From Ostreococcus lucimarinus (Eukaryota), in assembly GCA_000092065.1 (NCBI GenBank), contig CP000581.1: DNA of 64,000 nt, one strand, 5' to 3'. Below the pieces are notes generated by a model. The model ran no database searches and had not been told where the DNA came from. It saw only the letters and a list, made by a program, of their open reading frames with translations. Both the position numbers and the translations under genes were made by a program. Numbering within the stretch: the first letter of the stretch is position 1; every line of letters begins with the position of its first letter. Positions 2,671-59,160 of the stretch are shown piece after piece.

Positions 2671-3179
2671 ACCGCGCGCGCGCGATCTTCCCGCGTCGCT
2701 CCCGCGCAGGCGTCTCTCGGACCGTGTGATTCGCGCGTCGCTCGCGCCTCTCGCCTCTCGCCTCGCGCGCGCGTCTCGGCGCCTCGCGCGGCGCGACGAA
2801 CGCCCGCGCCTTCGTTCGCGCGCCGCGCTCGATCGCCGCGCTCGATCGCCGCGTTCGATCGACGACGCGCGCGTCGATTTGCCGCGCAACACCATTGTTG
2901 GTCCAGAGCAAAAAGAGCGAAATTCGACCGACCGGCGTGTCGGGAAAGACGACGGCGCGCGGCAGAAGACGCCGCCACCATGGTCGCGCGCGGTGCGACG
3001 GTGTGCGTGGGAGCGCGGTGTGGACACGCCTCTTGGCGTGCGCGCGAGAGACGAACGACGAGGTGCGCGCGACTACGACACGAAACGACGAGACGACGAC
3101 GCGCGTGCTGAATTTGAAATTTCAATCGGCGCGCGAGGCTGCGCGACGATGACGCGTTCGGGTTCGCGATCGAGCGGTC

Positions 3180-6100
3180 GTGGGACGAGACAGGGCGCGA
3201 AAGACTGACGCAGATGCGGTGCCGTGCGGTGATGCCGACCTTAGGCGTGTCGATCGTGGTGGGTGGCTCGACGGCGACGCGAGACTATCGACGCGAGGCG
3301 GACGCGTCGACGCTTCGGTGGCGGAGGGCGAGACGACGTGGCGAGGGGATTCGGGAAGTGATGCGGACGATGGAACGAGCGTGCAGGATGGTAGGGAATG
3401 GTACACGTTTAAGCACGGAGAGAACGTGCGGTGGTTGGTGGAACAGAGTGGGTTAGACTGGGCCACTCTGGAGCAACTGAATCCAGACATGGATTTGACG
3501 ACGACGTTTCCGGGAGATAGAATTGTTATCCGTGGACCACCGAGTTTAAAGCCGAACGATCGTGTGGTTGCAGCAGTGGTGGCACAACCGACGTCTTCCG
3601 TCGTGGTGACGCCAAGATTATCGACGTGGAGCTCACCCGTCGCATTAGCGGGTGTGCTCATCGTGGGTATCGTCACCGGCGCAGCTTTCGCGGGGAAAAG
3701 GCGGCTATCCACGGTCATCATGGCGCTCACGGGGAACGCGGACCCACAACTCGAGGCAAAAGACAACGAAATTGACGCTCTCAGAGCCCACCTGGATGTC
3801 GCGGAACGTGATCTCACGGACATGCGAGAGAAGTGGCTGAGGAACGAACAGTCGCTGGAAAACTTGCAACAGCTCCTGGAAAGTGCGTCGCGAGCCGACG
3901 CATCTTTGAGAGACCAAATCAGCGTGCTGAAAGAGTCCCTAGACTCAAGAAATAACGATGTCAAACGTCTCGAAAGCTCGAACGCTGAAGCCAATGAGCT
4001 TGCGGAGCAGTACAAAACCAAGCTTAAGAACGCTCAAGGTGAAGTTGACGCGCTGCGGGAAACTGAGAGAAACAGTGCGTCTCAACTTGCCCAAGTCACG
4101 CAGATGACAACGCAGTACGAAGGCGATATTTTGAGTTATAAAAGTAAATTATTGGACATCGAGGCGGAGCTGATGGCTCTCAGAGAGCTCAACGACGGTT
4201 ATTCTGATGAAGCAAATACCTCAAAAGAAAAGTACAAAGAGACACTGAGCGAAATTGCCAAAGTGACAGAGTTGAATGACAAGCTCGAGGCAGAGCTTTC
4301 AAAAACGAACGAACAGGTGATAAATCATCTAAACCAGCTAGCCATTCATAAGCACGACATGGAAAAGCTGGAATTAGAACTCGCGGCTTCTCGCAACGAT
4401 CTGTCAGAGTTGACGGTTGATTTTGAAAGCGCGAATACAAAATTGAGTTCACTTACGTCTGAACTGGAAGATAGCCGATCAGAGGCACTCGCATACTCGA
4501 ATGAGCTTCAAACTGTGAAAACCGACCTCGAGATTTCGATGGACGAACTCGAAACACTCAGAAAAAGTCTTAAAGCTTCGCAAGATCACGTTTCAGAATA
4601 TGAGATCAATCTCTCGGGTTACAAAACAAAGCTCGAAATGGTTCAATCGTCGCTTGAGATATCTCGTAATGAAGCCACAAGCTATCATGATGATCTTACT
4701 TTAAATAAACGTGAACTTGAGGAGGTGCGCGATGGACTTGAGCAGATAACGAGCGAGCTACGAGCTTCAAAGACTGAAAATTCCAGCTTATCTGATGAAC
4801 TCGACTGCTTAAAAAGCGAGCTTGAAATGCTTCAATCACAACTTGCTACTGCGAATGACGAGTCCTCAACACTCTCGATCGATCTTGCAGGGATTAAAAG
4901 TAAGCTCGAAATGGCTGAAAAAGCTCTGGAAGAGTCTCGCAATCAGGCATCTGGGTATAAGGGCGAGCTGGAAGTAGCACGTAATGAGGCTGTACAATTG
5001 TCTAGCGAGCTCATGGGCTTGAAAGTTAAGGTAGACGAGTTGGAGGTAGCGCTCAATGAAACCAGCGGAGAGTCGTCGACTCTTTCCATCGACCTCGCTG
5101 GTTTCAAGAGCAAGCTAGCAATGGTCGAGGAAGCTCTCGAGCAAGCGCGCACGCAGTCCTCTGAGTATGAAGGCGAGCTCGCTCGCGCTCGCGAGGCGCT
5201 CGAGAATGAGGCAAACGAGAAGAGATCCATGGAAGAGAAGTTTTCGAAGATGTGCGAGGAGCTATCTCAGCAGGGCATGCAAGCGTCGGAGGAAGGGGGA
5301 CGCCTAGAGCGCGAGCTCGCTTACACTCGCGAGGCGCTCGAGAATGAGGCAAACGAGAAGAGATCCATGGAGGAGAAGTTTTCAAAGACGTGCGAAGAGT
5401 TATCTCAGCAGGGCATGCAGGCGTCGCAGGAAGTTGATCGCCTGCAAGGTGAGTTGCAAAAGTCTAGAACCGCACTTGATAAAGCTAACGGCGAATCTTC
5501 ACTTCTTTCCATTGACCTCGCTGGTTTCAAGAGCAAGCTAGCAATGGTCGAGGAAGCTCTCGAGCAAGCGCGCATGCAGTCCTCTGAGTATGAAGGCGAG
5601 CTCGCTCGCGCTCGCGAGGCGCTCGAGAATGAGGCAAACGAGAAGAGATCCATGGAAGAGAAGTTTTCGAAGATGTGCGAGGAGCTATCTCAGCAGGGCA
5701 TGCAAGCGTCGGAGGAAGTTGATCGCCTGCAAGGTGAGTTGCAGGCGGCGCAAGCGGCGCTCGATAGCGCGTCGGGCGAGTCGTCGACTCTTTCCATCGA
5801 CCTCACTGGTTTCAAGAGCAAGCTAGCAATGGTCGAGGAAGCTCTCGAGCAAGCGCGCACGCAGTCCTCTGAGTATGAAGGCGAGCTCGCTCGCGCTCGC
5901 GAGGCGCTCGAGAATGAGGCAAACGAGAAGAGATCCATGGAAGAGAAGTTTTCGAAGATGTGCGAGGAGCTATCTCAGCAGGGCATGCAAGCGTCGGAGG
6001 AAGGGGGACGCCTAGAGCGCGAGCTCGCTCGCGCTCGCGAGGCGCTCGAGAATGAGGCAAACGAGAAGAGATCCATGGAAGAGAAGTTTTCGAAGATGTG

Positions 6101-7805
6101 CGAGGAGCTATCTCAGCAGGGCATGCAAGCGTCGGAGGAAGTTGATCGCCTGCAAGGTGAGTTGCAGGCGGCGCAAGCGGCGCTCGATAGCGCGGTGCGG
6201 GATTCAACGGAGATTCGCATTTCTGCTGATGGCTACAAGATGAATCTTGAAGCAGCGCAATGCGAGCTTGATGCGTTACGATCGCAAAGCGGTGACACGT
6301 CATCAGACCTTACAGAATATAAGAACAAGGTTGAATCATTGCAGTCCGAGCTTTTGTCTGCCCGTGAGGACTCTATGAAAACAGCAGAGGCTTTATCGCG
6401 AGAACAAATCAAATTTCAAGGCATGGAGGAAAAGTTGGCAAATATCGTAGCATCGAGCGGGGCAGACAACGTTGAGATTGAAACTTATAAATCACGGCTT
6501 GCGAGCAGTGAATTAGAACTCGAAACTCTTAGGGTGAAAGCAGCGGTAAATGCTGAAGAAGCAGAAAAGTATCAAGTAAATCTCATCGACGCCCGTGAGG
6601 AAGTTGCAAGATTAGCCGATGAAATTGGCGAGTGGAAGAGCAAAGCAGATTCTCTCGAACACCAACTCGGTCAAGTTCAGATGGAGCACCCCGACAAAGA
6701 TGAAGATGCAGAAAAAAATCGTCAGCTTGAGGACGAGTTAGAACTCTTAAAAGAAAAAGTCTCAGCGTCATCGGCTGAAATAGAGTCATACATGGGTAAG
6801 TTGGAGCACGCGGAATCTGAACTTTCAGTGATGCGAGCTGAGATTGAAGGAGGAAAACACGAAAGATCCGAACAAAACCAGGAAGTGATCGCGCGCATGC
6901 AAATTGAAGTTAGTGCAGCAAATGAGCGAGCTGATCGCTATAAGCAGCGTTTGCTTGAGCTCGAGGAAAATATGCAGCTCAAGTTAGAATCCCTTGAGTC
7001 GATTGCTGAATTTTCTGAAACAGAGGAAGTGCGATTGCTGCAGGAACAAATTTCGAGGCTTGAGTCAGAAAACGCCGAGGCGAACTCAATGCTGAAAAAC
7101 ATGGAACAGGATATAGCGAAAATGCGTGTCTCTTCTATCGAGCCTTCTCAGTCTCCAATGTGGCTGATCGAGGAAGAGCGGCGTGACATGGAATTATCTA
7201 TGCTTGAAGCGAGACAAGCAGCACAGCTCTCATTGGCACAAGTGTCGCAGGCGGTAACCAAAATGAGACAACAAGCGCGAGGCGAGCTGGTTTCGCATGC
7301 CATCTCTTGCGAGTTCAAAGTACGCAAAGATGTTGGCGAACATCAATTCCTTTGTTTGGTAGGAAGTTGGCACGAGTGGGATGTACAGACAGCTGATTAC
7401 ATGCAGCGCGGCGCTGATGGTACCTGGCAAGTTGCCATCACGCTCTTTGCAGATGAGGCGTACGAATATAAATACTGTGTTTGCGAGGTAAATGAGCACG
7501 GTCAGCGTGTTCCAATAGAGTGGCAAGTAGGCCACAATCACGGCTTTGCCTTCGATTCAAATCTAATCGTCAATCAGAACATGAAGGCCAAGGCGCAGAT
7601 CCGAGATAAATTTCTCGCGGATCCAGCGCATACCCCAATAATCTTATTTGGGCCAAATGGTGAAAAGTTTGAGACGGGTAGTACGGCGCTGCTCCACAAC
7701 TTCTCGAATCACATCGCTGAAAGTGGATTTGAGAATTTGCGAACGAGTCTTGAGCGTTTAAATGCCATCCTCGCGAAGTCACAGCGTAAAAATCTTGAGG
7801 CGTAG
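3180..7805 (+). CDS. Giant LysM - transmembrane - coiled-coil (internally repeated) - CBM20/48-type starch-binding domain protein
   Basis: N-terminal LysM-like segment YTFKHGENVRWLVEQSGLDWATLEQLNPDM...FPGDRIVIRGPP; one TM helix WSSPVALAGVLIVGIVTGAAFAG followed by KRR; about 1150 aa of E/L/K/A-rich heptad coiled coil; C-terminal FKVRKDVGEHQFLCLVGSWHEWD...GTWQVAITL...EYKYCVCEVNEHGQRVPIEWQVGHNHGFAF matches the CBM20/CBM48 fold signature. True start uncertain (first 60 aa D/G/R-rich). Confidence 0.7.
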   Translation: MGRDRARKTDADAVPCGDADLRRVDRGGWLDGDARLSTRGGRVDASVAEGETTWRGDSGSDADDGTSVQDGREWYTFKHGENVRWLVEQSGLDWATLEQLNPDMDLTTTFPGDRIVIRGPPSLKPNDRVVAAVVAQPTSSVVVTPRLSTWSSPVALAGVLIVGIVTGAAFAGKRRLSTVIMALTGNADPQLEAKDNEIDALRAHLDVAERDLTDMREKWLRNEQSLENLQQLLESASRADASLRDQISVLKESLDSRNNDVKRLESSNAEANELAEQYKTKLKNAQGEVDALRETERNSASQLAQVTQMTTQYEGDILSYKSKLLDIEAELMALRELNDGYSDEANTSKEKYKETLSEIAKVTELNDKLEAELSKTNEQVINHLNQLAIHKHDMEKLELELAASRNDLSELTVDFESANTKLSSLTSELEDSRSEALAYSNELQTVKTDLEISMDELETLRKSLKASQDHVSEYEINLSGYKTKLEMVQSSLEISRNEATSYHDDLTLNKRELEEVRDGLEQITSELRASKTENSSLSDELDCLKSELEMLQSQLATANDESSTLSIDLAGIKSKLEMAEKALEESRNQASGYKGELEVARNEAVQLSSELMGLKVKVDELEVALNETSGESSTLSIDLAGFKSKLAMVEEALEQARTQSSEYEGELARAREALENEANEKRSMEEKFSKMCEELSQQGMQASEEGGRLERELAYTREALENEANEKRSMEEKFSKTCEELSQQGMQASQEVDRLQGELQKSRTALDKANGESSLLSIDLAGFKSKLAMVEEALEQARMQSSEYEGELARAREALENEANEKRSMEEKFSKMCEELSQQGMQASEEVDRLQGELQAAQAALDSASGESSTLSIDLTGFKSKLAMVEEALEQARTQSSEYEGELARAREALENEANEKRSMEEKFSKMCEELSQQGMQASEEGGRLERELARAREALENEANEKRSMEEKFSKMCEELSQQGMQASEEVDRLQGELQAAQAALDSAVRDSTEIRISADGYKMNLEAAQCELDALRSQSGDTSSDLTEYKNKVESLQSELLSAREDSMKTAEALSREQIKFQGMEEKLANIVASSGADNVEIETYKSRLASSELELETLRVKAAVNAEEAEKYQVNLIDAREEVARLADEIGEWKSKADSLEHQLGQVQMEHPDKDEDAEKNRQLEDELELLKEKVSASSAEIESYMGKLEHAESELSVMRAEIEGGKHERSEQNQEVIARMQIEVSAANERADRYKQRLLELEENMQLKLESLESIAEFSETEEVRLLQEQISRLESENAEANSMLKNMEQDIAKMRVSSIEPSQSPMWLIEEERRDMELSMLEARQAAQLSLAQVSQAVTKMRQQARGELVSHAISCEFKVRKDVGEHQFLCLVGSWHEWDVQTADYMQRGADGTWQVAITLFADEAYEYKYCVCEVNEHGQRVPIEWQVGHNHGFAFDSNLIVNQNMKAKAQIRDKFLADPAHTPIILFGPNGEKFETGSTALLHNFSNHIAESGFENLRTSLERLNAILAKSQRKNLEA
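5070..6190 (+). repeat. Near-identical in-frame tandem DNA repeats inside the coiled-coil gene (alternating ~138-nt and ~285-nt units)
   Basis: The block GCGAGGCGCTCGAGAATGAGGCAAACGAGAAGAGATCCATGGAAGAGAAGTTTTCGAAGATGTGCGAGGAGCTATCTCAGCAGGGCATGCAAGCGTCGGAGGAAG recurs about 5 times (near 5190, 5328, 5613, 5899, 6037). The longer unit beginning GAGTCGTCGACTCTTTCCATCGACCTCGCTGGTTTCAAGAGCAAGCTAGCAATGGTCGAGGAAGCTCTCGAGCAAGCGCGCACGCAGTCCTCTGAGTATGAAGGCGAG recurs 3 times (near 5071, 5491, 5771) with only scattered substitutions. Confidence 0.85.
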
Positions 7806-21471: not shown

Positions 21472-21538
21472 GCCGTCGCGCCGTCGCGACGCCGTCGTCG
21501 CGGTCTGCGCCCCGGGCGCGCGCGACGCCGCCGACGCC

Positions 21539-21572
21539 GCCGATCGATCGATCGATCGATCGATCGATCGTG
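21539..21572. repeat. (CGAT)n tetranucleotide microsatellite, about 8 units
   Basis: CGATCGATCGATCGATCGATCGATCGATCG read directly; lies about 70 nt upstream of the SnRK2 ATG in a divergent intergenic region. Confidence 0.9.
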
Positions 21573-21815
21573 GACGACGGTTCGCGATCGGGACGCGAAT
21601 CGACGCGCGCGATATCGACGCGTGTGACGGCGCGCGCGCGCGCGGTGACGGCCAGTGCGCGACGCGCGCGCGAGCGGAGCGTCGAAGACGACGCGCGCGC
21701 GCGTCTGAATCGTCGCGGCGGCGCGCGGTCGAGACGCGGGACGACGGGACGAGGGGAAGGGATACGGCGCGACGCGTCTCGCGGCGACGTCTCGAGCGCG
21801 GGACGAAGGCGCGGG

Positions 21816-28248: not shown

Positions 28249-29841
28249 TTAACTCGCGTCATCGGGTAAGCCAATGATTGCTTGTTTCTCCGCCGCCGTC
28301 TTCTTTTTCTGCACTGAAGTGTGCTTCTTTCGAAGTGTTTGCTCATCCATGTGGAAATCCTTCGGCCAAAGCTCCACAACTTCTTTCCACACCGCGCCGG
28401 CGGTTGCCTTGGAGGTTGCAAAGAAGATACGCACGAGCGTGACGAACATGAGCTCGGCGATTTCCTTCGTCCATTCAAATGTGTAGCTCTCAGACGTCGC
28501 CACTCCTGTTTTGATTCGTTCAGACTCGCGAATCGTTTCGCACTGCTTATCGACCAAAGCCTTGATCTTTGCAAACTCCGCAGCTTTGCCATCGACTATC
28601 TTCTTCCTCGCCTCGGGATGCCTCGGGTCGGTCACGTCAAGGTTGGCGGCGCCACGGGAAGCCGTGGCGTTGGAAGATTTTGTCTTTTGCGAGGAAGAGT
28701 TGACAACCGCAGCCGCGTGCTGCGAACGCCTGGGCGTGCTCAAACCATCCTCTTCACCTTCCTCCTCCTCTTCGTCGTCGTCTGTTTCCTTGACATTCAT
28801 CATCGATGGTGGTTTAGGTGGCACCTTCGGGATGACGATGTCGATCCCGAGCGCCTGCAAATCCTTCTCCATCGCGTCCCATTGTTTGCGCATGCGATGA
28901 GTCGAATACGACTTCAGCTCGGGGTACTCGCCACAATCAAGGATCATCTGCCATCTTTTACCGTACGTCGTCACCGCCTTTCGAAGCGTTTTCTTGGTCT
29001 CCTCCGTCCATTCCACCATCTTGGCTGGCGCCGGCTTCTCCTTCTTCGCCGGGGGTTTGTCGTCAGACGTCATCGCCACATGCTTCACGGGAGTTCGCCC
29101 CTCTTCATCGACCTTTTGCAACTCGCCCTTATTGATGAAGAATCCACTATGTTTGGTTTTTAAGCCATCGTCTTCAAAGTACTCATCCAGTTCGTCGTCG
29201 TCGATGAAATCGTCGTCGACGTCGTACCAGTCCACGTCTCTCTTTCTCTTCGCCTGTTTCTTCTTCTTCGCCGGTTTCCCTTTCTTTTCCTCGGACGACT
29301 TCGCCGCAGGAGGCTGTTCAATACGCTGCGTACCGTTGGGCGTCATCGTCGGCTTATCATCCGGGTCCTCCATTTCACTTCCGGAGTCCTCCTCGTCTCC
29401 GCTCTCTCCGAGCTCGTCGTCGTCGCCCTCGCCTTCTTCACCACTCTCACCCTCTTCATCGCCCTCGTCGTCTTCGTCTTCTTCAGAATCCTCCTCTGAC
29501 CCGTCCTCGTCGTCGTCCTCTTCATCATCGCTCGACGCGTTCCCCGGTCCACCTTGATACAGCGCCTCGATTCTTCGAATCACCGCCGCCATGTGTCCGC
29601 CCCCGCCCGCGCCGCCGCTCTCCAACAAAGATTTCGGCGATTTCATCGCCGCCTCGCTCGCCGTCGCCGTCGCCGACTTCTGCTTCGCTTCCTTCTCCGC
29701 CGACGCGCGCGTCTCCCCGCTCTGCTCCCTCAACAGCTTTTTATAATTCACGCACGGCACGTCTTCGCCGTCGACGTCGAGCAGCTGCACCAACCGCCGC
29801 GGCGCCGCCGGGCTCCCCCCCCCTCGTCTCGCCGGCGTCAT
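28249..29841 (-). CDS. Acidic nuclear protein with HUN-like (HPC2/ubinuclein) and Myb/SANT-like motifs, hypothetical
   Basis: Long D/E tracts (SSDDEEDDDEDGSEEDSEEDEDDEGDEEGESGEEGEGDDDELG), K/R-rich NLS-like KKGKPAKKKKQAKRKRD, then DWYDVDDDFIDDDELDEYFEDDG resembling the HUN motif, and WTEETKKTLRKAVTTYGKRWQMILD...YSTHRMRKQW resembling a SANT/Myb helix. Tentative. Confidence 0.4.
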   Translation of the reverse strand: MTPARRGGGSPAAPRRLVQLLDVDGEDVPCVNYKKLLREQSGETRASAEKEAKQKSATATASEAAMKSPKSLLESGGAGGGGHMAAVIRRIEALYQGGPGNASSDDEEDDDEDGSEEDSEEDEDDEGDEEGESGEEGEGDDDELGESGDEEDSGSEMEDPDDKPTMTPNGTQRIEQPPAAKSSEEKKGKPAKKKKQAKRKRDVDWYDVDDDFIDDDELDEYFEDDGLKTKHSGFFINKGELQKVDEEGRTPVKHVAMTSDDKPPAKKEKPAPAKMVEWTEETKKTLRKAVTTYGKRWQMILDCGEYPELKSYSTHRMRKQWDAMEKDLQALGIDIVIPKVPPKPPSMMNVKETDDDEEEEEGEEDGLSTPRRSQHAAAVVNSSSQKTKSSNATASRGAANLDVTDPRHPEARKKIVDGKAAEFAKIKALVDKQCETIRESERIKTGVATSESYTFEWTKEIAELMFVTLVRIFFATSKATAGAVWKEVVELWPKDFHMDEQTLRKKHTSVQKKKTAAEKQAIIGLPDDAS

Positions 29842-30700
29842 CCCGCCCGTCCCGGTCGCGCGCGCGTCGTCCCCCTCCTCTTCCCTCGCCTTCCTTCACG
29901 CCGCGCGCGTCCCGCGCCTCGCCTCCGATCCACCCGCGCGCGTCCCGCGCCTCCGCTAAGCGCGCGCCCCGCGCGTTTCAAACGGATGCGCGCACGAATC
30001 GATTCACGCGGAGCGTCCCCGACGCGCCTGGCGCGCGCGCGCGTCGTCTCGATCCGTCGCCCGCGTCGTCGCGGTTTGCGGCGTCGCGCGCGCGTCGTCT
30101 CGATCCGTCGCGCGCGTCGGTCGTCGTCGGTCGTCGTCGGATGTCGGACGTCGTCGGATGTCGGATCCGTCGTCGGCCGGCGTCGAGTGGCGTCGCGCGA
30201 TCGACGCGATATCGGCGCGTCGCGCGACCGACGCGATATCGGCGCGACGGCGCGGGACGGGACCGGCGACGCGATATCGGATATCGGCGCGGCGCGGCGC
30301 GGTCGCGCGCATGGGTGTACGTGTATCGTAAATACGCCTAAAGCGGCCGTATTCGAACGCATCGATGCGGGATCGCGCGTCCACGATCGATCGCGGTCGC
30401 GTCGCGCGCGCGGGCGCGCATGCATTGATTATGGGTGTACGTGTATCGTAAATACGCGACCGCGGCCGTATTCGAACGCATCGATGCGGGATCGCGGATC
30501 CCGGATAGATCGCGGGCGCGTCGCGCGCGCGGTCGCGCATGCGTCGATTATGGGTTTACGTGTATCGTAAATACGCGACCGCGGCCGTATTCGAACGCAT
30601 CGATGCGCGATCGCGCGTCCACGATGGAGCGCGGGCGCGTCGCGCGCGCGGTCGCGCATGCATCGATTCGTGCGTTCGCGACGGGGCGATAGAGTCGGAC
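29842..30700. repeat. Repeat-rich intergenic/promoter region with nested short direct repeats and 3 x ~119-bp tandem units (30301..30665)
   Basis: Unit: GCATGCATTGATTATGGGTGTACGTGTATCGTAAATACGCGACCGCGGCCGTATTCGAACGCATCGATGCGGGATCGCG...CGCGGGCGCGTCGCGCGCGCGGTCGC, repeated at about 30308, 30428 and 30547 with few substitutions; each carries the perfect palindrome CGCATCGATGCG and TTCGAA. Upstream: duplicated GCGCGCGTCGTCTCGATCCGTCGC (30041-30115), GCGATATCGG x4 (30200-30290), CGCGCGCGTCCCGCGCCTC x2 (29905-29955). Confidence 0.85.
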
Positions 30701-30703
30701 GCG

Positions 30704-31490
30704 ATGGACGCGACGTGCGCGCCGCCGCCGGCGAGACCGAATTGCGATTGCGGTGCGCGCGACGCGACGCTGCGCGACGCGACGGGACGCGGGACGACGC
30801 GACGACGACGCGCGGGCGATCGAGGGTCGAGGGCGCGCGGTCGAGGGCGGGATCTCGACGGCGCGCGAGCGACGGCGCGCGGGACGCGCGCGGGACGCGG
30901 GCGACGGCGACCGCGCGATCGGGGAGTGGGGAGACTGACGGATGCGGTGATCGCGCGCGAGAACAGCGGTGTGCGTGCCGAAGGCGCTGAAAGATGGGGA
31001 TTACGACGCCTCGCTCAAGGGGCCGACGAGCCCGTTTCAGCCGTACAAGCTGGTGAAGGTGGAGTTGGACGGCACGCGAAGACCGCTGACGGCGCAGGAG
31101 CTGAACGCGCTCGAAAAGTCGAATCCGACGGTTTGTGAGTGGCAAACGCCGCTCAGTCAGGCGAAGCGGATGTGGCAGAAGACGTGCGCGGGGATTTTGA
31201 AAAAGTTGTTTACGTACAAAAAGTTGGCGTGGCCGTTTACGGAGCCGGTGGATTGGGAGGTTTTGAACATCCCGGATTACCCGGTCATCATCAAGCATCC
31301 CATGGACTTGAAAACGATCGAGTCGAAGTTGCACGACGGGCACATCGAAAGCCCTGATGAGTTTGTCGCCCTCGTGCGCACGGTTTTCCGTAACGCGTAC
31401 GTGTACAACGCGGTGGGCGATCCCAGCGGCGTTCGCGAGTGCGCGGAGAAGCTCTCGCAAATTTTCGAGAAGGAACTCGCCAAATTGTAA
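30704..31490 (+). CDS. Small bromodomain protein; join(30704..30752,30967..31490)
   Basis: Exon 2 encodes a BET-like bromodomain (ILKKLFTYKKLAWPFTEPVDWEVLNIPDYPVIIKHPMDLKTIESKLHDGHIESPDEFVALVRTVFRNAYVYNAVGDPSGV). The ORF-track start is a GTG; a Cys-rich micro-exon ATGGACGCGACGTGCGCGCCGCCGCCGGCGAGACCGAATTGCGATTGCG (MDATCAPPPARPNCDC + 1 nt) followed by GTGCGC...GAGACTGACGG...GAACAG| joins in phase 1 to give ...CDC-A-VCVPKALK. Confidence 0.65.
30753..30966 (+). other. intron (bromodomain gene), 214 nt, phase 1
   Basis: Donor GTGCGC at 30753; branch GACTGACGG about 30 nt upstream of acceptor AACAG at 30962-30966. Confidence 0.55.
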
Positions 31491-35869: not shown

Positions 35870-37357
35870 TCAAGTTTCGTAACGCTGCTCGCCGAGCAAG
35901 AAAACCTTGTCCGTTCTCGACAAGTCGTGTTCGAATCCGCCATGGCCGATGCGCTCCAGGGCGTCTGCAGGAGAAATATCGAGAAGTTCGTCGCCGAGAA
36001 GGGCGCGCCAGGTGTTGAGATCGGTGATTCCCGTTTCTGGTAAGCGATTACTCGCTTGGAAAGTCAGAAGAGCCGCGGAGGTGGTGCTACCGAAGTACCA
36101 ATACTCCATGTCCTCTTCGCCCGAATCGAAACCTTGTTCGGAGAGGATGACTTGCATCTTGTGAACTTCCATACCGCCGTCGTCTTCGCGAAGGACGGGC
36201 CACTTATGAGCACCTATTTTACCGTTCGTTTCGAATGAAGCGCCTTGAGGCGCACCTCGCTCGTCGTCGTGGCCAAAAGGATCGTAATCATCCGGGGCGT
36301 AGTCCTCTTCCGCCATGACATATTTCGGGTTCGCAGTGGCCGCTTCTGCTGCGGGCGCTTCTACCGAGGGCACCTTGTCCACGACCTCTGGAATCTTGCT
36401 CTCATCGAATGCGATCGCACCCGGTGGAGGTCCCCACTTGAATGCTTCTTCACCGAGCAATGCGCGCCACGTATCCGAATCCACGAGCCCAGTCTCGGGG
36501 ATCCCAGCGTTGGCTTGGAAATACAACAACGCGACCTTCGTCGTTTCGCCGAAGAACATATCCTCCTCGTCGTCTTCCCCGGCCCAGAATCCCGCCTCGT
36601 TTAATTTGTAGTGAATCGTCGTCATCAGATAGATGTCGTCGTCATTTTTCTTGACGAGCGGCCACTCCCCCGAACGATCCGTGCCGTCGCCTCTCCACTC
36701 GCTCACGTCGAGCACGGGCTCGACAATCGGTTCGCTCGCCTCCACATCCACCGCGCCTAACCCACCACCACCAACGCCAAGCATGGCCAACATATCCGCA
36801 TCACTCTTCTCTCCCTTCACGGCGTTCATGCTCGAGCCCGCGTCGAGCGTCCCTCCTCGCGTCGTCGCCGCTCGCACCTCCTCCTTCAGCTCCCGCACCT
36901 CCTTCGTCAACGACCGAATCTCTTTCAGCAGCTCCATCTGCACTTGCGCCGCATCCAAGACTATTTCTCCTCGCTCTTCGCGTATCTCCCGCAGTTCATT
37001 ATCGATCAGCGTGCGTTCGACGCGCAGGCGCGACGTCTCCACCAACGCCGCCTCCGCCGCGTCCCCAGCCTTCTTGAGAAATCCTCGAAGCTTCTTCTTC
37101 CCTCGCGCCACCACCGCGCCGCGCGGAGCGTCCGCGCGCGCGCGTCGCGACGGCGCGAGCGTCACCGGCGTCGCCCCGTCCGCGCGCGCGCGAAGGACGC
37201 AGCGCGCGCGCGGCGTCGCGGCGTCGCCGAATCCACGCCCGACGACGACGACGGCGGCGCGCGCGACGCCTCGAGCGCGCGCCGCGCCGCGCGACGACGA
37301 CGGCGCGCGCGCCGCCGTCGATCGCGTCGACGCGGCGATGGGCGCGCGCGCGCGCAT
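35870..37357 (-). CDS. Protein with two peptidoglycan-binding (PG_binding_1) domains and transit-peptide-like N-terminus
   Basis: Two copies of the PF01471-like pattern: ...HYKLNEAGFWAGEDDEEDMFFGETTKVALLYFQANAGIPETGLVDSDTWRALLG and ...VILSEQGFDSGEEDMEYWYFGSTTSAALLTFQASNRLPETGITDLNTWRALLG. N-terminus from internal ATG MRARAPIAASTRSTAARAPSSSRGAARARG is S/T/R/A-rich. Upstream ORF codons overlap the LRR gene on the other strand. Confidence 0.6.
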   Translation of the reverse strand: MRARAPIAASTRSTAARAPSSSRGAARARGVARAAVVVVGRGFGDAATPRARCVLRARADGATPVTLAPSRRARADAPRGAVVARGKKKLRGFLKKAGDAAEAALVETSRLRVERTLIDNELREIREERGEIVLDAAQVQMELLKEIRSLTKEVRELKEEVRAATTRGGTLDAGSSMNAVKGEKSDADMLAMLGVGGGGLGAVDVEASEPIVEPVLDVSEWRGDGTDRSGEWPLVKKNDDDIYLMTTIHYKLNEAGFWAGEDDEEDMFFGETTKVALLYFQANAGIPETGLVDSDTWRALLGEEAFKWGPPPGAIAFDESKIPEVVDKVPSVEAPAAEAATANPKYVMAEEDYAPDDYDPFGHDDERGAPQGASFETNGKIGAHKWPVLREDDGGMEVHKMQVILSEQGFDSGEEDMEYWYFGSTTSAALLTFQASNRLPETGITDLNTWRALLGDELLDISPADALERIGHGGFEHDLSRTDKVFLLGEQRYET

Positions 37358-37475
37358 GTCGGAAGACGACGCGACGCGACGAGAGCGCGCGTGACAATGC
37401 CGACACCGACGCGCTGCGCGCGAGACGTCGACGCGCGACGCGCGGACGACGCGTCGAGGCGTCGAGTCGACGGCG

Positions 37476-38078
37476 ATGACGCGGTCGAGCGCGATGCGCG
37501 CGCTCGCGCGCGCGCGCGCGCGCGTCGTCGCCGCGCGCGCGCGCGGTGGGAACGTTTCGTCGTCGTCAAAGTTCGCGTCGATGACGACGACGACGACGAC
37601 GCGCCCGAGCGACGACGTCACCGCGCGCACGCTGCTCGAGGCGAACGGCAAGCGATTCGACGTCGCGATGCCGCGCGGCGTGGCGCTGCAGGCGCTGTTG
37701 CTCGCGCGAAGCGACGACTTGAAGTGCGTGGACATCATGTGTCAGTGGGTGGGGGACGCGTGCGCGTGCAGGCTCGCGCGCGCGCTCGACAGGCGAGGGG
37801 AGGCGCTCAGGGTGCTGGATGTTTCTGGGAACAGGCTGCGCGCGCTGCCGAGCGCGGTGTGGGCGATGCGGGCGCTGGAGGTGTTGGACGCGAGCGACAA
37901 CGCGTTGACGCCGGCGGACGTCCCGTTCGACGATTTGATGGACGAGACCAAGGATGTGGCGCCGAATCTCAAGGTTTTGAATTTAAGGGGGAACGTGGCG
38001 GTGATAGATGGGTTAGAGGGGCGATTGAGAGAGGTCGTGGACGCCATGGCGCGTCGCGGCGTGAAGCTCGTGTTGTAG
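37476..38078 (+). CDS. Leucine-rich-repeat protein, small
   Basis: LRVLDVSGNRLRALPSAVWAMRALEVLDASDNALT...LKVLNLRGNVAV: consecutive LxxLxLxxNxL repeats. Confidence 0.5.
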   Translation: MTRSSAMRALARARARVVAARARGGNVSSSSKFASMTTTTTTRPSDDVTARTLLEANGKRFDVAMPRGVALQALLLARSDDLKCVDIMCQWVGDACACRLARALDRRGEALRVLDVSGNRLRALPSAVWAMRALEVLDASDNALTPADVPFDDLMDETKDVAPNLKVLNLRGNVAVIDGLEGRLREVVDAMARRGVKLVL

Positions 38079-39284: not shown

Positions 39285-40154
39285 TCGTTCCGCCGGCGCA
39301 GGAACCGGCGTTTTCTTTTTCTGCGGTAAACTAACTTCTAACGTCACCTTCACGTCATCATCCGCACCGACTGTGGTGATGATGTTCACGCGCTCTTGCG
39401 ACGGCTTTGGAGTTTTCGGCTTCTTCGGTGGCTTGACCTTTTTCGGCGCGTACTTCGTGTTATATCTCGTCATCGCGTCACCAAACTTGTTGTCAAGCAA
39501 CACCTCCTGCAACGCCTCCACGGCGTCTTCCACGGCGCCATTCACCTTGACCGCGTCGTCCTCATCGAACCTCGAAAGCACGTACTCGTACACCGCCGTA
39601 TTTTCATCTTTAGGCCGTCCAATCCCAATCTTAACTCGCGCGAAAGATCTATCGCCGCGCGTCGCGTCGTCGATGACGCTTCGCACACCGTTATGCCCAC
39701 CATGACTCCCGCTCGTCTTCATCCTCAACTCTCCAAGCTTGGTCTCTAAATCATCGTACACGATCACGATTCGCGACTTACCGATCTTAAACGCCCGCAT
39801 CATCTCTCGCACGCTCTTGCCGCTCAGGTTCATAAAAGTCTGCGGCTTCGCCAGAACCACCGCGCTGCGTCCAAGCTTCCCCACCCCGAGCACCGCGCGG
39901 TGCTTCGTCGACGTCAGCTCGATCCCAGCGCGTCGCGCGAGCGCGTCCACGACCTCGAAACCGACGTTGTGTCTCGTGCCGGCGAATTTCGCGCCTGGGT
40001 TCCCGAGTCCACAAATCAACCACGCGTCGCGTTCGACGCCGCGCGCGCCCATCGCGCGCGTCGACACCGCGCGCACCGCGCGCGCGGGCAAGCCGACGAT
40101 CGCCACCGACGCGCGCGCGGTGGCTCGCAGCGCGCCCGCGAGCGCGCGCTTCAT
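39279..40154 (-). CDS. PTH: Peptidyl-tRNA hydrolase (bacterial/organellar Pth type) with organellar presequence
   Basis: WLICGLGNPGAKFAGTRHNVGFEVVDALARRAG...KPQTFMNLSGKSV...SGSHGGHNGVRSV matches Pth motifs (GLGNPG, catalytic H in TRHNVG, GHNG). N-terminus MKRALAGALRATARASVAIVGLPARAVRAV is targeting-like. Stop codon overlaps the convergent oxygenase gene by about 6 nt. Confidence 0.75.
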   Translation of the reverse strand: MKRALAGALRATARASVAIVGLPARAVRAVSTRAMGARGVERDAWLICGLGNPGAKFAGTRHNVGFEVVDALARRAGIELTSTKHRAVLGVGKLGRSAVVLAKPQTFMNLSGKSVREMMRAFKIGKSRIVIVYDDLETKLGELRMKTSGSHGGHNGVRSVIDDATRGDRSFARVKIGIGRPKDENTAVYEYVLSRFDEDDAVKVNGAVEDAVEALQEVLLDNKFGDAMTRYNTKYAPKKVKPPKKPKTPKPSQERVNIITTVGADDDVKVTLEVSLPQKKKTPVPAPAERL

Positions 40155-40292
40155 GCCGCGGTGGCGAGTGGCGCGTGCCGCAGTGCTCGACGCGACGACG
40201 CGAGACGAAGACGAGATGAGCGCGCGACAGGTGCGAACGACGCGACGCGGCGCGGCGCGACGCGACGATGTCGCGCGTCGGGCGACGCGACG

Positions 40293-41015
40293 ATGCGACG
40301 GGCCGCGCGCCGTTCGAATCGATTCGATTCGATTTCGATGCGATCGAGCGATGCGTTGGCGTCTAGGGCGACGACGCGAAGCGCGTTCGAGCGCGTCGAG
40401 ACTCGCAGAGCCCCCCCCGCGCGCGATGACGACACGACTGACGCCGAGCGCGTCGAGCGCGCGCGATCGAAGAAACAAACCGCCGAGGACGTGGCGGCGC
40501 AGATGGAGAAACGCGCGGCGGCGCAGGCGAGACTCGCGGCGGCGCAAGCGGCGGCGGCGGCGTCCGCGGCGGCGGCGAAAAAGAAGACCGATGATGGTGG
40601 TCACGCGATCTCCAAGGATGAGCTTCAGGAGCTGCTGAAGGAGTTCGCGCCGGGAGAGAGCTTCGAACCGGAGGTTGAGGAAATGCTGTTGGAGATTACG
40701 GACGACTTCGTCGACAACGTGCTCGAACACGCGGCGCGATTAGCGAGACATCGAGGAAGCGAGGCGGTGGAACCGAAAGATGTGTTGTTACATCTCGAGC
40801 GGCAGTGGGATATGCACATTCCCGGGTACGGTGGTGAAGAGGTGCCAAAGTATACGGAGAAGCAAAGCGTGGAGACGCACTCGAGACGACTGGCGGCGGT
40901 GCGACGGTCGGTAGCCGCGGCCACGGCGGCGCAAAACGAGCAACGCAAGCAAGCTCGACTCGCAGCCGATCGTGCGACGAAAGGAAAAGGAGATATGGGC
41001 GCGGAAGACGCATAG
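40293..41015 (+). CDS. TAF12: TFIID subunit TAF12-like histone-fold protein
   Basis: ISKDELQELLKEFAPGESFEPEVEEMLLEITDDFVDNVLEHAARLARHRGSEAVEPKDVLLHLERQWDMHIPGYG aligns nearly residue-for-residue with the TAF12 histone fold. Start at MRRAARRS; upstream ORF codons overlap Pth. Confidence 0.65.
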   Translation: MRRAARRSNRFDSISMRSSDALASRATTRSAFERVETRRAPPARDDDTTDAERVERARSKKQTAEDVAAQMEKRAAAQARLAAAQAAAAASAAAAKKKTDDGGHAISKDELQELLKEFAPGESFEPEVEEMLLEITDDFVDNVLEHAARLARHRGSEAVEPKDVLLHLERQWDMHIPGYGGEEVPKYTEKQSVETHSRRLAAVRRSVAAATAAQNEQRKQARLAADRATKGKGDMGAEDA

Positions 41016-51384: not shown

Positions 51385-52957
51385 ATGCTCGCCTCCGCTT
51401 CCACGTTCACCGGCGTCAAGGTCGTCGCGAAGGCGACCGCCAAGACGACCGTCGCCAAGCGCGCCGCGTGCGTGACGCGCGCGGGGCAATACGACGATGA
51501 ATTGCTCGAGACCGCGGTGCGCGCGACGACGCGACGCGACGCGACGCGGGACGACGCGATGACGCGGTGATGCGCGCGCGACGCGCGCGGGAATCCGGCG
51601 ATGCGCGCGGGAGTTGGGATGGAAAATATTTTCGCGTCGAACGCGCGCGGGCGCGGCGGTCGGGGGGGGCGCGCGCGTCGGGGGGGGGCGACGGCGCGAC
51701 GGCGCGAGATCGGATAGGGTTGTTCGGGCGAGGGTGATAATCCATCAATCCATCGATCGAAACGACTCGCGTCGCGACGGAATCGATCGAACGCGGTGAC
51801 TGACGAGGATGGAAACGCGATTCGCGACGCGCGCAGACCAACATGACCAAGCCGGGTAAGGGTATCCTCGCCATGGACGAGTCCAACGCCACGTGCGGTA
51901 CCCGACTCGAAGGCGTCGGGGTCGAAAACACCGAAGAAAACCGCCGCCGCTACCGCGAGTTGCTCATCAGCACCAAGGGTATGGGCGAATACGTCGGCGG
52001 TGCGATTCTCTTCGAAGAAACCTTGTACCAATCTTGCAAGGATGGCACCTCGTTCGTCGACGCGCTCCGCAAGGAAGGCATGTACCCGGGTATCAAGGTT
52101 GACAAGGGCCTCCGGCCGCTCGCCAACTCCAACGGCGAGTCTTGGTGCCAAGGTCTCGACGGCCTCGCCGAACGCGCGGCTGAGTACTACAAGCAAGGCG
52201 CGCGCTTCTGCAAGTGGCGCTCCGTCGTCTCCATCCCGGCCGGTCCGTCCAAGATCGCCGTGACGGACTGCGCTTACGGCCTCGCCCGCTACGCGGCCAT
52301 CTGCCAAAACGCCGGTCTCGTCCCGATCGTCGAACCGGAGATCCTCCTCGACGGTGACCACGACATCGACCGCAACTTCGAAGTCGCCTCCATGGTTTGG
52401 GCGGAGACCTTCAAGTACTTGGCCGACAACAACGTCAAGTTCGACCGCATGCTCTTGAAGCCGTCCATGGTTGCCCCGGGCGCCGACTGCACGAAGAAGT
52501 CCAACGCCAAGGAAGTCGCCGCGTACACCTTGAAGATGCTCAACTCCCGAGTCCCGCCGGAAACCGCGGGCATCATGTTCTTGTCCGGTGGCTTGTCCGA
52601 GTTGGACTCCACCATGTACTTGAACGCCATGAACCAGCAACCGAACCCGTGGCACGTGTCTTTCTCGTACGCGCGGGCTCTTCAAAACTCGGTACGTATT
52701 TTTTTTTGTGAGCGCCTCGTCACGCGTCTGAGAAGCGTCTGAGAATCGCGAGAATAACGCGTACTGACGACTGACGAACACTTATAACGCGCCAGGTTAT
52801 TAAAACGTGGGCGGGCGATGATTCTCGAACCGCGGAAGCGCAAGAAATCCTTCTCCGCCGCGCTCGCGAGAACTCTGAAGCGCAACGCGGCGTCTTCGAC
52901 GTGACGAAGTCGCAGACGGAAGGTTCTTCGATGTATGAGAAGGGCTACGTGTACTAA
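51385..52957 (+). CDS. FBA: Fructose-bisphosphate aldolase class I, plastid-targeted; join(51385..51516,51837..52691,52796..52957)
   Basis: Exon 2: TNMTKPGKGILAMDESNATCGTRLEGVGVENTEENRRRY... (class-I FBA, Schiff-base Lys region present). Exon 1 (small ORF 51385..) MLASASTFTGVKVVAKATAKTTVAKRAACVTRAGQYDDELLETA is a transit peptide ending in the conserved mature N-terminus (plant plastid FBA: ...YADELVKTAKTIASPGRGILAMDES). Exon 3 supplies the conserved C-terminus VIKTWAGDDSRTAEAQEILLRRARENSEAQRGVFDV...YEKGYVY*, whereas the ORF-track tail VRIFFCERLV is intronic. Confidence 0.85.
51517..51836 (+). other. intron 1 (aldolase), 320 nt, phase 0, separates transit peptide from mature protein
   Basis: Donor GTGCGC after GAGACCGCG; branch GGTGACTGACGAGG about 30 nt upstream of acceptor CGCGCAG|ACCAACATG. 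Confidence 0.75.
52692..52795 (+). other. intron 2 (aldolase), 104 nt, phase 0
   Basis: Donor GTACGT after ...CAAAACTCG; T-rich tract; branch GTACTGACGACTGACGAAC; acceptor CGCCAG|GTTATTAAAACGTGG. Confidence 0.8.
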
Positions 52958-58368: not shown

Positions 58369-58558
58369 CGCTTCTCGAAGCTTCGCGGCGCGGAGTGGCG
58401 ATCGATCGCCGCGCGACGGTCGACCCTCGGCGCGAGGGTCGAGGCGCGCGCGCGAACCTCGCGGCGAGGGTCGCGGCGCGCGCGCGACGACGCGCGGGGA
58501 CCGACCGTCGCGCGCGACGGACGACGCGCGCGACAGACGACGACGACGACGACGCGCG

Positions 58559-59160
58559 ATGCGGGCGGCGGCGACGACGACGATGCTGGGACGCTCGACG
58601 ACGACGGGCGCGCGCGCGCGCGCGCGCGCGGCGCCGGCGCGCGCGTCGACGCGGAAATATCCGGTCGTCTCGAGGTTTTCGGCGACGCGCGACGCGAGGA
58701 CGGGCGCGGGCGCGTTTCGCAACGCGCCGGAGCCGCAGACGGAGGAAGAGGAGGGGTCGGTTTTGGATTTCCCGGAGGAGTACCAGCGCGCGGTGCCGTC
58801 GAGACGACCGGACATATTTCCAGACCTGAAGGAGCCGAAGACGCCGATGCCGCGACCGATGCCGGGCGACCCGGAGATGCCAGGTACGCGACGACGACGT
58901 CTCGTGTGGTCACCGTGTTGACTAATTTTTTACGCGCAGATGAGGAGGAAGAGGAGAAGGAGCGCAAGGAGAATCCCGGTGAACCGGGGGTAAGTTTTGG
59001 TTTCGACCGACGCGCGTTCGCGACTCGAGCTCGCGCGAACGCTCGACTGACTCCTCGCTTTCGCGTCGCGTCGTAGGAAAAACCGGAAGATGAGGAAGAA
59101 GAAGAAAACGAAAAGAAGAAGAAGAAGAAGATCAAGAAGGATGACGAAGAAGAAGAGTGA
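58559..59160 (+). CDS. Hypothetical three-exon gene: transit-peptide-like N-terminus, disordered Pro-rich middle, poly-E/poly-K C-terminus; join(58559..58883,58940..58989,59077..59160)
   Basis: Exon 1 (internal part of ORF 57719..58921): MRAAATTTMLGRSTTTGARARARAAPARASTRKYPVVSRF...EEYQRAVPSRRPDIFPDLKEPKTPMPRPMPGDPEMP. Donor CCAG|GTACGC, branch TTGACTAAT, acceptor CGCGCAG; 50-nt exon 2 encodes DEEEEEKERKENPGEPG; donor GGG|GTAAGT, branch CGACTGACTCC, acceptor GTCGTAG; exon 3 encodes EKPEDEEEEENEKKKKKKIKKDDEEEE then TGA. All junctions are in frame and the terminal stop closes the frame exactly. Confidence 0.4.
58884..58939 (+). other. intron 1 of hypothetical gene, 56 nt, phase 1
   Basis: GTACGCGACGACGACGTCTCGTGTGGTCACCGTGTTGACTAATTTTTTACGCGCAG. 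Confidence 0.45.
58990..59076 (+). other. intron 2 of hypothetical gene, 87 nt, phase 0
   Basis: GTAAGTTTTGG...CGCTCGACTGACTCCTCGCTTTCGCGTCGCGTCGTAG; acceptor position corroborated by an ORF-track stop at 59074-59076 in another frame. Confidence 0.45.

What the first reader, a model, noticed from the sequence alone, without database searches (positions are those of the whole stretch)
29842..30968. 1.1-kb repeat-laden promoter with 3 x ~119-bp tandem units bearing a perfect CGCATCGATGCG palindrome
Intergenic spacers in this window are typically 30-300 nt, but the divergent spacer between the acidic HUN-like gene (start 29841, minus) and the bromodomain gene (ATG 30704) is about 860 nt and almost entirely direct repeats. 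Three near-identical ~119-bp units each carry the 12-bp perfect palindrome CGCATCGATGCG plus TTCGAA and a TGTATCGTAAATACG element. Shorter duplicated blocks also occur: GCGATATCGG x4, GCGCGCGTCGTCTCGATCCGTCGC x2, CGCGCGCGTCCCGCGCCTC x2. Palindromic 12-mers in tandem arrays are what dimeric transcription-factor binding-site clusters or a satellite/insulator element look like. The array ends about 40 nt before the bromodomain ATG.
Basis: seen in the sequence. Interest (0 to 1): 0.55.

Follow-up and report, generated by a model that had tools for sequence, protein, structure and literature searches.

The report
Polymorphic minisatellite in an algal promoter
A 119-bp stretch just upstream of a small bromodomain gene of the marine picoalga Ostreococcus lucimarinus is repeated three times head to tail, and contigs assembled from wild populations show one, two or three copies, so it looks like an ordinary fast-evolving promoter minisatellite rather than a conserved array of regulatory sites.

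Summary
Window 30311-30668 holds 3 x 119/120-bp tandem units, 89-92% alike. Each carries CGCATCGATGCG, TTCGAA and TGTATCGTAAATACG, and the array ends 35 nt before ATG 30704.

The window is Ostreococcus lucimarinus CCE9901. The flanking genes are a ubinuclein/HUN gene (XP_001415857.1, minus strand) and a two-exon bromodomain gene (XP_001415528.1). The ATG-to-ATG spacer is 862 nt and 79% tandem repeats. The rest of the reported interval is exon 1 plus a 214-nt intron.

The same three-unit array appears in 11 independent metagenome assemblies, so it is not an artefact. Other contigs carry 2 or 1 units with their own sequence variants.

The unit and both motifs are absent from the orthologous spacers of O. 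tauri, O. mediterraneus, a fourth Ostreococcus lineage and a lower-GC relative. O. tauri has an unrelated 28-bp minisatellite (2-5 copies) at the same spot. No other copy of the unit was found. Perfect 12-nt palindromes are common in this genome.

Verdict: a young, lineage-specific, copy-number-variable promoter minisatellite. Any effect on expression is inferred, not shown. Modest interest.

The parts
28249..29841 (-). Ubinuclein/Hpc2-like (HUN domain) gene, 530 aa, = XP_001415857.1 of Ostreococcus lucimarinus CCE9901. This is the left-hand divergent gene.
   Evidence: Exact protein match and names. Pfam PF08729 HUN, E 2e-14. The O. tauri orthologue is named Ubinuclein/Yemanuclein.
29842..30703 (.). 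Divergent ATG-to-ATG intergenic spacer, 862 nt, 70-79% G+C, 79% covered by tandem repeats. GC skew changes sign at about 30050-30100.
   Evidence: Neighbouring spacers are 35-200 nt.
29899..29976 (.). 33-nt repeat x2.4, containing CGCGCGCGTCCCGCGCCTC x2.
   Evidence: TRF score 82; family D4.
30034..30125 (.). Two copies, 51 nt apart, of CGCGCGCGCGTCGTCTCGATCCGTCGC. One copy (51 nt) is missing in a Tara contig (L147).
   Evidence: Family D3, 97% identity. 51-nt deletion at 30034 in L147.
30115..30176 (.). GTCGGTCGTCGTCGGAT-type 17/10/7-nt repeats.
   Evidence: TRF.
30190..30307 (.). 27-nt repeat x2.4 with CGACGCGATATCGG x3, then GATATCG x2 and (CGGCG)4.4. Population variants include a CGGCG insertion (L005) and loss of the GATATCGG copies (L150).
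30311..30430 (.). Minisatellite unit 1 (120 nt). Palindrome CGCATCGATGCG at 30358-30369. A CCTAAAG / CGACCG patch at 30337-30343 is polymorphic in the population.
30431..30549 (.). Minisatellite unit 2 (119 nt). Palindrome at 30477-30488.
30550..30668 (.). Minisatellite unit 3 (119 nt). Palindrome at 30596-30607. It ends 35 nt before the bromodomain ATG.
30704..30752 (+). Exon 1 of the bromodomain gene (MDATCAPPPARPNCDC + first base of an Ala codon).
   Evidence: The translation matches the N-termini of orthologues, including a complete MMETSP transcript. The exon is conserved in four Ostreococcus lineages. The spliced product is identical to XP_001415528.1.
30753..30966 (+). Intron 1 (214 nt, GTGCGCG...ACTGAC...AACAG, phase 1). 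It is G-rich and itself full of short CGCGACG-type repeats.
30967..31490 (+). Exon 2 of the bromodomain gene, through the stop codon. The whole protein is 190 aa.
   Evidence: Pfam PF00439, E 5e-16; exact match to XP_001415528.1.

Best explanation
The array is a young, lineage-specific minisatellite (VNTR) that varies in copy number. It lies in the shared promoter region of the divergent ubinuclein and bromodomain genes of Ostreococcus lucimarinus.

A roughly 119-bp segment lying 35-154 nt upstream of the bromodomain start codon was duplicated head to tail. That segment carried one CGCATCGATGCG palindrome, one TTCGAA and one AT-rich TGTATCGTAAATACG element. Unequal exchange or replication slippage between units then generates alleles with 1, 2 or 3 units. 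The same mechanisms produce the smaller repeat indels across the rest of the spacer.

What is shown: the structure, its position relative to the gene models, its reality, its polymorphism and its absence from sister species.

What is inferred only: each extra unit adds another copy of whatever proximal-promoter elements the segment contains, possibly including the transcription start region. Copy number would then most plausibly change bromodomain-gene output, and perhaps ubinuclein output, quantitatively. This is how promoter tandem repeats behave in yeast and humans. The effect may equally be nil.
For: - Structure: 3.0 copies of period 119, 90% matches; units differ at 9-13 positions.
- Position: 35 nt upstream of a start codon confirmed by orthologue N-termini and by exact identity of the spliced product to XP_001415528.1.
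- Reality: 11 of 18 independent metagenome contigs carry three units. Six are base-for-base identical to the window across the spacer.
- Polymorphism: 2 units in L146 and L154, and 1 unit in L148 (the same contig as L009) and L150. There are 10 distinct unit variants. The 1- and 2-unit haplotypes L146, L148 and L150 carry private variants, so they are not simple collapses of the common allele. The flanks are 99.2-100% identical to the window, apart from 96.9% left of the array in L150, so these are the same species.
- Other differences in the spacer are mostly repeat-unit indels: a 51-nt deletion, a CGGCG insertion and a GC insertion.
- Lineage specificity: no unit, 12-mer or 15-mer in the orthologous spacers of O. 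tauri, O. mediterraneus or a fourth lineage. Local alignment of the unit to those spacers is no better than shuffles, with 18-44 of 200 shuffles scoring as high.
- Same process elsewhere: O. tauri has an unrelated 28-bp minisatellite ending about 52 nt before the same ATG, with 2, 4 or 5 copies in different contigs.
- Uniqueness: no other copy in the window. Translated-unit searches of 1.84 and 5.8 billion proteins returned three proteins in all. The two from the representative search were checked and are allelic ORFs of this locus; the single hit from the other search was not checked.
Against: - No expression, transcription-start or binding data exist here, so any regulatory effect is analogy only.
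- Copy numbers come from short-read metagenome assemblies, which can collapse tandem repeats. L154's 2-unit allele is exactly what a u2/u3 collapse would give. Three scaffolds have N gaps inside the array.
- Differences between units cluster in unit positions ~59-87, while TGTATCGTAAATACG is invariant in all 10 variants and the palindrome is intact in 9 of 10.
- Genome-wide uniqueness was tested only indirectly, because the reference genome was not available.
Confidence: 0.7

Rival explanations
1. One reading: the array is a selected homotypic cluster of binding sites for a dimeric transcription factor that recognises CGCATCGATGCG, and perhaps the TGTATCGTAAATACG element. It would act as an enhancer or insulator for the two chromatin genes.
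For: The 5' 58 nt of the unit, which holds both motifs, is nearly invariant among the three units and among 10 population variants, while the middle third is hypervariable. The array lies 35-390 nt upstream of the ATG, where proximal elements are expected.
Against: - The motifs are repeated only through duplication of the whole unit.
- The 12-mer occurs nowhere else in 64 kb, even with one mismatch.
- Perfect 12-nt palindromes are common here: 124 against about 33 expected.
- The ATCGAT core occurs 55 times, mostly inside coding ORFs by inspection against my ORF map.
- The unit and motifs are absent from all orthologous spacers.
- Haplotype L150 has the palindrome broken, and single-copy haplotypes exist.
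Confidence: 0.13
2. The array is transcribed as part of a long bromodomain 5' leader. Its repeated upstream ATGs would then act as upstream ORFs that tune translation. Each unit begins ATGGGTGTACGTGTATCGTAA, which encodes a 6-codon ORF.
For: Only 35 nt separate the array from the ATG, so the transcription start may lie inside it. Each unit contains several ATGs. GC skew is mildly positive, as in the gene's intron, from about 30100 onward.
Against: No transcript evidence is available. The unit-initial ATG is absent in haplotype L150, which reads AGTGGGT, so the upstream ORF is not conserved even within the species. RNA folding of the units is not better than shuffles on the sense strand, z -0.6 to -1.1.
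Confidence: 0.08
3. The unit belongs to a dispersed satellite, a transposable-element remnant or a virus-derived repeat that happens to sit here.
For: Nothing positive. The genome-wide test was only indirect.
Against: - No other copy in the window.
- The only true hit among 120 metagenome loci is this same locus.
- Viral-contig scans gave no related hits.
- The translated unit found three proteins in all; the two that were checked are allelic ORFs of this locus.
Confidence: 0.03
4. The units are tandem small-RNA genes (snoRNA, tRNA-like or miRNA precursors), or the whole array is an assembly artefact.
For: The units contain several short dyad symmetries. The minus strand of unit 3 folds with z = -2.2.
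Against: - No Rfam match near any gathering score; the best is mir-592 at 24 bits against 67.
- No tRNA.
- The other fold z-scores are -0.6 to -1.6.
- Reading both strands of the unit by eye, I found no C/D boxes (TGATGA, CTGA); this was not a tool result.
- Artefact is excluded by identical arrays in independent assemblies. The three units differ enough to be placed unambiguously.
Confidence: 0.03

Closest known systems
Unstable tandem repeats in promoters. In yeast: Vinces et al., Science 2009, cited from my own knowledge because the paper is not in the held library. In humans: promoter microsatellites and VNTRs, for example as reviewed in PMC3566118.
   Same: A head-to-tail repeat lies inside the upstream region of a gene. 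Copy number differs between natural genomes. There is rapid turnover, so sister species have different repeats or none at the same promoter.
   Different: The 119-bp unit is much longer than the mono- to hexanucleotide and short minisatellite units that dominate those studies. The repeat is G+C-rich rather than AT-rich and nucleosome-excluding. No expression effect has been measured here.
Classical polymorphic promoter VNTRs such as the human INS VNTR and MAOA-uVNTR (from my own knowledge).
   Same: A minisatellite with units of tens of base pairs sits just upstream of one gene. There are a few discrete copy-number alleles in the population.
   Different: Those VNTRs have alleles whose effects on transcription have been measured. 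Here only the alleles are documented, and only from metagenome assemblies.
The 28-bp minisatellite at the orthologous Ostreococcus tauri promoter (found here).
   Same: It sits in the same intergenic spacer, a similar distance from the same start codon (~52 nt against 35 nt). It is copy-number variable (2-5) and breaks short-read assemblies.
   Different: The unit sequence is unrelated (CGCGCCTGCACACGCGGGTGTTTTCGAC) and much shorter. It has no CGCATCGATGCG palindrome. It therefore arose independently.

Membership tests
Promoter minisatellite / VNTR | Head-to-tail tandem copies with a unit of 10 bp or more | tested here: met
   Period 119, 3.0 copies, 90% matches, no indels, score 595.
Promoter minisatellite / VNTR | Lies in non-coding DNA upstream of a gene's start codon | tested here: met
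   The array ends 35 nt before ATG 30704. That start is confirmed by orthologue N-termini and by exact identity of the spliced product to XP_001415528.1.
Promoter minisatellite / VNTR | Copy number differs among individuals of the species | tested here: met
   Of 18 independent contigs, 11 have 3 units, 2 have 2 units, 2 have 1 unit and 3 have N gaps. Private unit variants in L146, L148 and L150 argue against simple collapse. Caveat: these are short-read assemblies.
Promoter minisatellite / VNTR | Copy number changes transcription of the adjacent gene | not testable with these tools
   No expression or transcription-start data are available.
Homotypic transcription-factor binding-site cluster | The motif recurs independently of wholesale duplication, or is over-represented | tested here: not met
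   The 12-mer occurs only inside the three units. Perfect 12-nt palindromes are generally abundant: 124 against about 33 expected.
Homotypic transcription-factor binding-site cluster | The motif is conserved at orthologous promoters | tested here: not met
   Absent from the O. tauri, O. mediterraneus and fourth-lineage spacers, and by eye from the spacer of a lower-GC relative. It is broken in haplotype L150.
Homotypic transcription-factor binding-site cluster | A protein binds the motif | not testable with these tools
   No binding data are available.
Dispersed satellite / transposable-element-derived repeat | Related copies at other genomic loci | tested here: inconclusive
   None in the 64-kb window. 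None among the fetched metagenome and viral loci. Translated-unit searches found three proteins, and the two checked are allelic ORFs of this locus. The complete genome could not be searched, and the metagenome scan was truncated.
Structured RNA gene (Rfam families, tRNA) | Match to a covariance model, or a fold more stable than shuffles | tested here: not met
   Best Rfam hit is 24 bits against a gathering score of 67. No tRNA. Fold z-scores are -0.6 to -2.2.

The most novel reading that the evidence does not exclude
The ubinuclein-bromodomain divergent promoter may be a hotspot where unrelated minisatellites arise again and again and stay polymorphic. O. lucimarinus has a 119-bp unit with 1-3 copies. 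O. tauri has a 28-bp unit with 2-5 copies. The fourth lineage has a 16-bp unit with 5 copies. On this reading, selection in wild picoplankton populations favours tunable expression of these two chromatin regulators, an 'evolvability' locus that can be read directly from ocean metagenomes.
Probability: 0.12. Interest if true: 0.55.

Novelty: new member of a known kind. Interest (0 to 1): 0.28.

Why it matters
The main value is as a clean negative. A striking palindrome-bearing array turns out to be a recent triplication, not a conserved regulatory code.

Three smaller points have practical value:
- The array is a ready-made length marker for tracking O. lucimarinus haplotypes in metagenomes or by PCR. 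The O. tauri 28-bp array could serve the same purpose there.
- It explains why short-read assemblies break or leave gaps at this locus.
- Two congeneric species have independently acquired variable minisatellites at the same promoter of a chromatin-regulator gene pair. That offers a small natural experiment on whether promoter repeat number tunes expression in a genome with almost no spare non-coding DNA. O. tauri is transformable, so the test is feasible.

Tried and rejected
It was swamped by chance hits in bacterial contigs, where the 18-mer can be read as the peptide RIDAFE. Only L052 was the true locus. The scan says nothing about genome-wide dispersal. A longer pattern would have been better.
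2. Viral-contig scans with a 17-mer and a 22-mer gave three unrelated low-GC chance hits and none, respectively. There is no link to viruses.
3. Rfam, ARAGORN and RNA folding of the units on both strands gave nothing convincing.
4. Local alignment of the unit plus its flanks against the orthologous spacers of three other Ostreococcus lineages was no better than shuffles. There is no phylogenetic footprint.
5. I tested whether ATCGAT, AATCGATT or CGATATCG are promoter motifs. ATCGAT is frequent (55 occurrences) but mostly coding. AATCGATT occurs twice against 2.15 expected. CGATATCG occurs four times, three of them in this spacer. This is too weak to claim.
6. I first thought ATG 30704 was wrong, because it is out of frame with the bromodomain ORF. 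I withdrew that once the intron was recognised.
7. I first noted that the bromodomain gene was probably unannotated in the reference. That was wrong: it is XP_001415528.1.
8. The apparent 4-unit allele in L011 is a scaffold with an N gap and was not counted.

Full report
**What is in the sequence**

Reading window 29500-31300 and running Tandem Repeats Finder and the repeat finder confirms the description. A 119-bp unit is repeated 3.0 times at 30311-30668, with 90% matches, no indels and score 595. The units are 30311-30430 (120 nt), 30431-30549 and 30550-30668. Pairwise they differ at 9-13 positions.

Each unit holds TGTATCGTAAATACG, TTCGAA and the perfect palindrome CGCATCGATGCG. In the whole window the 12-mer occurs only at these three places, even allowing one mismatch. 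The same is true of the 15-mer.

Upstream of the array the spacer is a patchwork of smaller tandem duplications:
- a 33-nt repeat x2.4;
- a 24-nt core duplicated 51 nt apart;
- 17-nt repeats x2.9;
- a 27-nt repeat x2.4 carrying CGACGCGATATCGG x3.

TRF arrays cover 679 of the 862 nt between the two start codons.

**Organism and gene models**

The 530-aa minus-strand protein is identical to XP_001415857.1 of Ostreococcus lucimarinus CCE9901. It carries a HUN (Hpc2/ubinuclein) domain. The O. tauri orthologue is annotated Ubinuclein/Yemanuclein.

The bromodomain ORF (30969-31490) has no in-frame ATG near its start, and ATG 30704 is in another frame. However, the peptide from ATG 30704 (MDATCAPPPARPNCDC) matches the N-termini of orthologues, including a complete MMETSP transcript. 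Splicing GT30753...AG30966 joins it in frame to the bromodomain ORF. The exon, the donor GTGCG and the acceptor CAG|CGGTGTG are conserved in four Ostreococcus lineages. The spliced 190-aa product is identical to XP_001415528.1, and the O. tauri version to XP_022838226.1 'Bromodomain'.

The true divergent spacer is 29842-30703 (862 nt), and the array ends 35 nt before the ATG. The last 265 nt of the reported interval are exon 1 and a 214-nt intron. Spacers between neighbouring called genes are 35-200 nt, so this spacer is exceptional.

Short CG-rich tandem repeats also occur at other divergent promoters and gene 5' ends in the window, for example at 21541-21666, 37181-37545, 40023-40577 and 58421-58582. 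The upstream small repeats are thus ordinary for this genome. Only the 119-bp array stands out, as the sole large-unit non-coding array in 64 kb.

**Is it real, and does it vary?**

The locus was recovered from 18 independent marine metagenome contigs. Their flanks are 99.2-100% identical to the window, except 96.9% left of the array in L150.

| Units | Contigs | Notes |
|---|---|---|
| 3 | 11 | Six are base-for-base identical to the window across the spacer |
| 2 | 2 | L146, L154 |
| 1 | 2 | L148 (the same contig as L009), L150 |
| gap | 3 | N gaps inside the array, not counted |

This excludes an assembly artefact in the window.

There are ten distinct unit variants. L146, L148 and L150 carry variants not seen in the three-unit alleles, so they are separate haplotypes rather than collapses. 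L154's second unit is exactly a u2/u3 hybrid, so it could be either an unequal crossover or an assembly collapse.

Other differences in the spacer are also mostly repeat-unit gains and losses: a 51-nt deletion in L147, a CGGCG insertion in L005, a GC insertion in L002, and loss of GATATCGG copies in L150.

**Comparison with relatives**

The head-to-head HUN/bromodomain arrangement, followed by the SKI2 helicase gene, is conserved in the following lineages:
- O. tauri;
- O. mediterraneus;
- a fourth Ostreococcus lineage with 88% bromodomain identity;
- a lower-GC Mamiellales relative, probably Bathycoccus (not verified).

Their ATG-to-ATG spacers are about 350-1025 nt, so a long spacer is ancestral. 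None contains the 119-bp unit, the 12-mer or the 15-mer. Local alignment of the unit to three of those spacers is no better than shuffles.

O. tauri has an unrelated 28-bp minisatellite (CGCGCCTGCACACGCGGGTGTTTTCGAC, 95% matches) ending about 52 nt before the same ATG. It has 2, 4 or 5 copies in complete contigs, and several contigs terminate inside it. It is the strongest non-coding tandem repeat in the 10-12.6 kb of O. tauri sequence I fetched. In the fourth lineage the strongest repeats also lie in this spacer, a 16-nt unit x5. O. mediterraneus has none above score 80.

**Is the unit dispersed?**

No other copy is present in the window. Two viral scans were negative.

As a proxy I searched the spurious ORFs that read through the units. 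The minus-strand ORF against 1.84 billion representative proteins gave two hits. Both map back to this locus as allelic forms. A plus-strand ORF against 5.8 billion proteins gave one 85-aa hit at 87% identity, which I did not map back. So there is no sign of dispersal, but the reference genome itself was not searched.

**Is the palindrome a binding site?**

The evidence is weak.
- The three copies are not independent.
- Perfect 12-nt palindromes number 124 in the window against about 33 in Markov-1 simulations, largely because of (CG)n and (GATC)n runs.
- ATCGAT occurs 55 times, mostly within coding ORFs.
- The motif is not conserved in any relative, and it is broken in haplotype L150 (CGCATCGACGCG).

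In its favour, substitutions among units and variants cluster in unit positions ~59-87. The 5' 58 nt, which holds both motifs, is almost invariant. That is compatible with constraint, but also with a hypermutable GATCGCG-rich middle or with gene conversion.

No RNA-gene signal was found.

**Conclusion**

The feature is a young promoter minisatellite, specific to O. lucimarinus and variable in copy number. It was produced by tandem duplication of the 119 bp immediately upstream of the bromodomain gene, inside a spacer that evolves mainly by repeat gain and loss. That identity is well supported.

The mechanism is inference by analogy with promoter tandem repeats in yeast (Vinces et al. 2009, from my own knowledge) and humans (PMC3566118). 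I could not find an earlier description of this in Ostreococcus. The literature searches returned only general tandem-repeat surveys.

The most interesting residue is the independent appearance of variable minisatellites at the same promoter in two species. That could be chance in the longest non-coding stretch of the neighbourhood, or a locus-specific propensity.

Noticed in passing
L158:1-660 (O. tauri-like contig ERZ24794571 k141_213199, plus 6 similar contigs not shown): Everything upstream of the 3' edge of the 28-bp minisatellite is replaced by about 660 nt of AT-richer DNA. It contains telomere-like CCCTAAA/TTTAGGG pieces, some in inverted pairs, and the contig begins there. It matches nothing else fetched. 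This may be a mobile-element insertion or a rearrangement breakpoint exactly at the array.
   Followed up: partly
window 30753-30966 and 51517-51836: The bromodomain intron and the intron of the class-I aldolase gene share several features. For the aldolase gene, exon 1 starts at ATG 51385, exon 2 starts at 51837, and the product matches PF00274. Both introns begin GTGCGCGCGACG(A)CGCGACGCGACG. Both are G-rich CGCGACG-type low-complexity sequence. Both have ACTGAC about 30-45 nt before the CAG acceptor. This may be a general intron signature of this genome or a shared origin.
   Followed up: partly
window 29996-30005, 40315-40326, 51779-51794; L017:5270-5286; L169:~3893-3902: A GAATCGAT(T/C) palindromic motif recurs near promoters:
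- about 150 nt upstream of the HUN ATG in the window;
- as CGAATCGATTCG about 22 nt before the TAF12-like ORF, in another divergent spacer;
- about 90 nt upstream of the HUN ATG in O. mediterraneus;
- about 105 nt upstream of the bromodomain ATG in the lower-GC relative.

It also occurs in the aldolase intron. It is not numerically enriched: AATCGATT occurs 2 times against 2.15 expected.
   Followed up: partly
window 21472-21815: A second divergent promoter lies between a protein-kinase-like gene on the minus strand and an ORF starting at 21816. It contains a perfect (GATC)7.5 microsatellite at 21541-21570 and a CGCGATATCG element at 21608. That element resembles the CGACGCGATATCGG repeats of the studied spacer.
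   Followed up: no
window 5169-6161: A large tandem repeat (138-nt period x7.1, 285-nt period x2.4, 91% matches) lies inside the long ORF 3153-7805. It is presumably a repeated protein module.
   Followed up: no
L013:5738-5756 and L169:3678-3706: Plant-type telomere-repeat ('telobox'-like) sequences lie in the same spacer of two relatives. The fourth Ostreococcus lineage has CCTAAACCCTAAATTT about 60 nt upstream of the bromodomain ATG. The lower-GC relative has TTTAGGGTATAGGGTTTAGGGT about 300 nt upstream. O. lucimarinus has none in the spacer.
   Followed up: no
L011, L153, L155 (O. lucimarinus); L014-L016, L019, L159-L164 (other lineages): Short-read metagenome assemblies often leave N gaps inside the 119-bp array. 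Many contigs of the other lineages end in or close to this spacer. Published MAGs of these algae are therefore likely to be broken or mis-sized at this locus.
   Followed up: partly
L165-L168 (more distant bromodomain orthologues at 58-60% identity, probably Micromonas, not verified): The HUN-bromodomain-SKI2 gene order seen in Ostreococcus and the lower-GC relative is not kept around these more distant orthologues.
   Followed up: no
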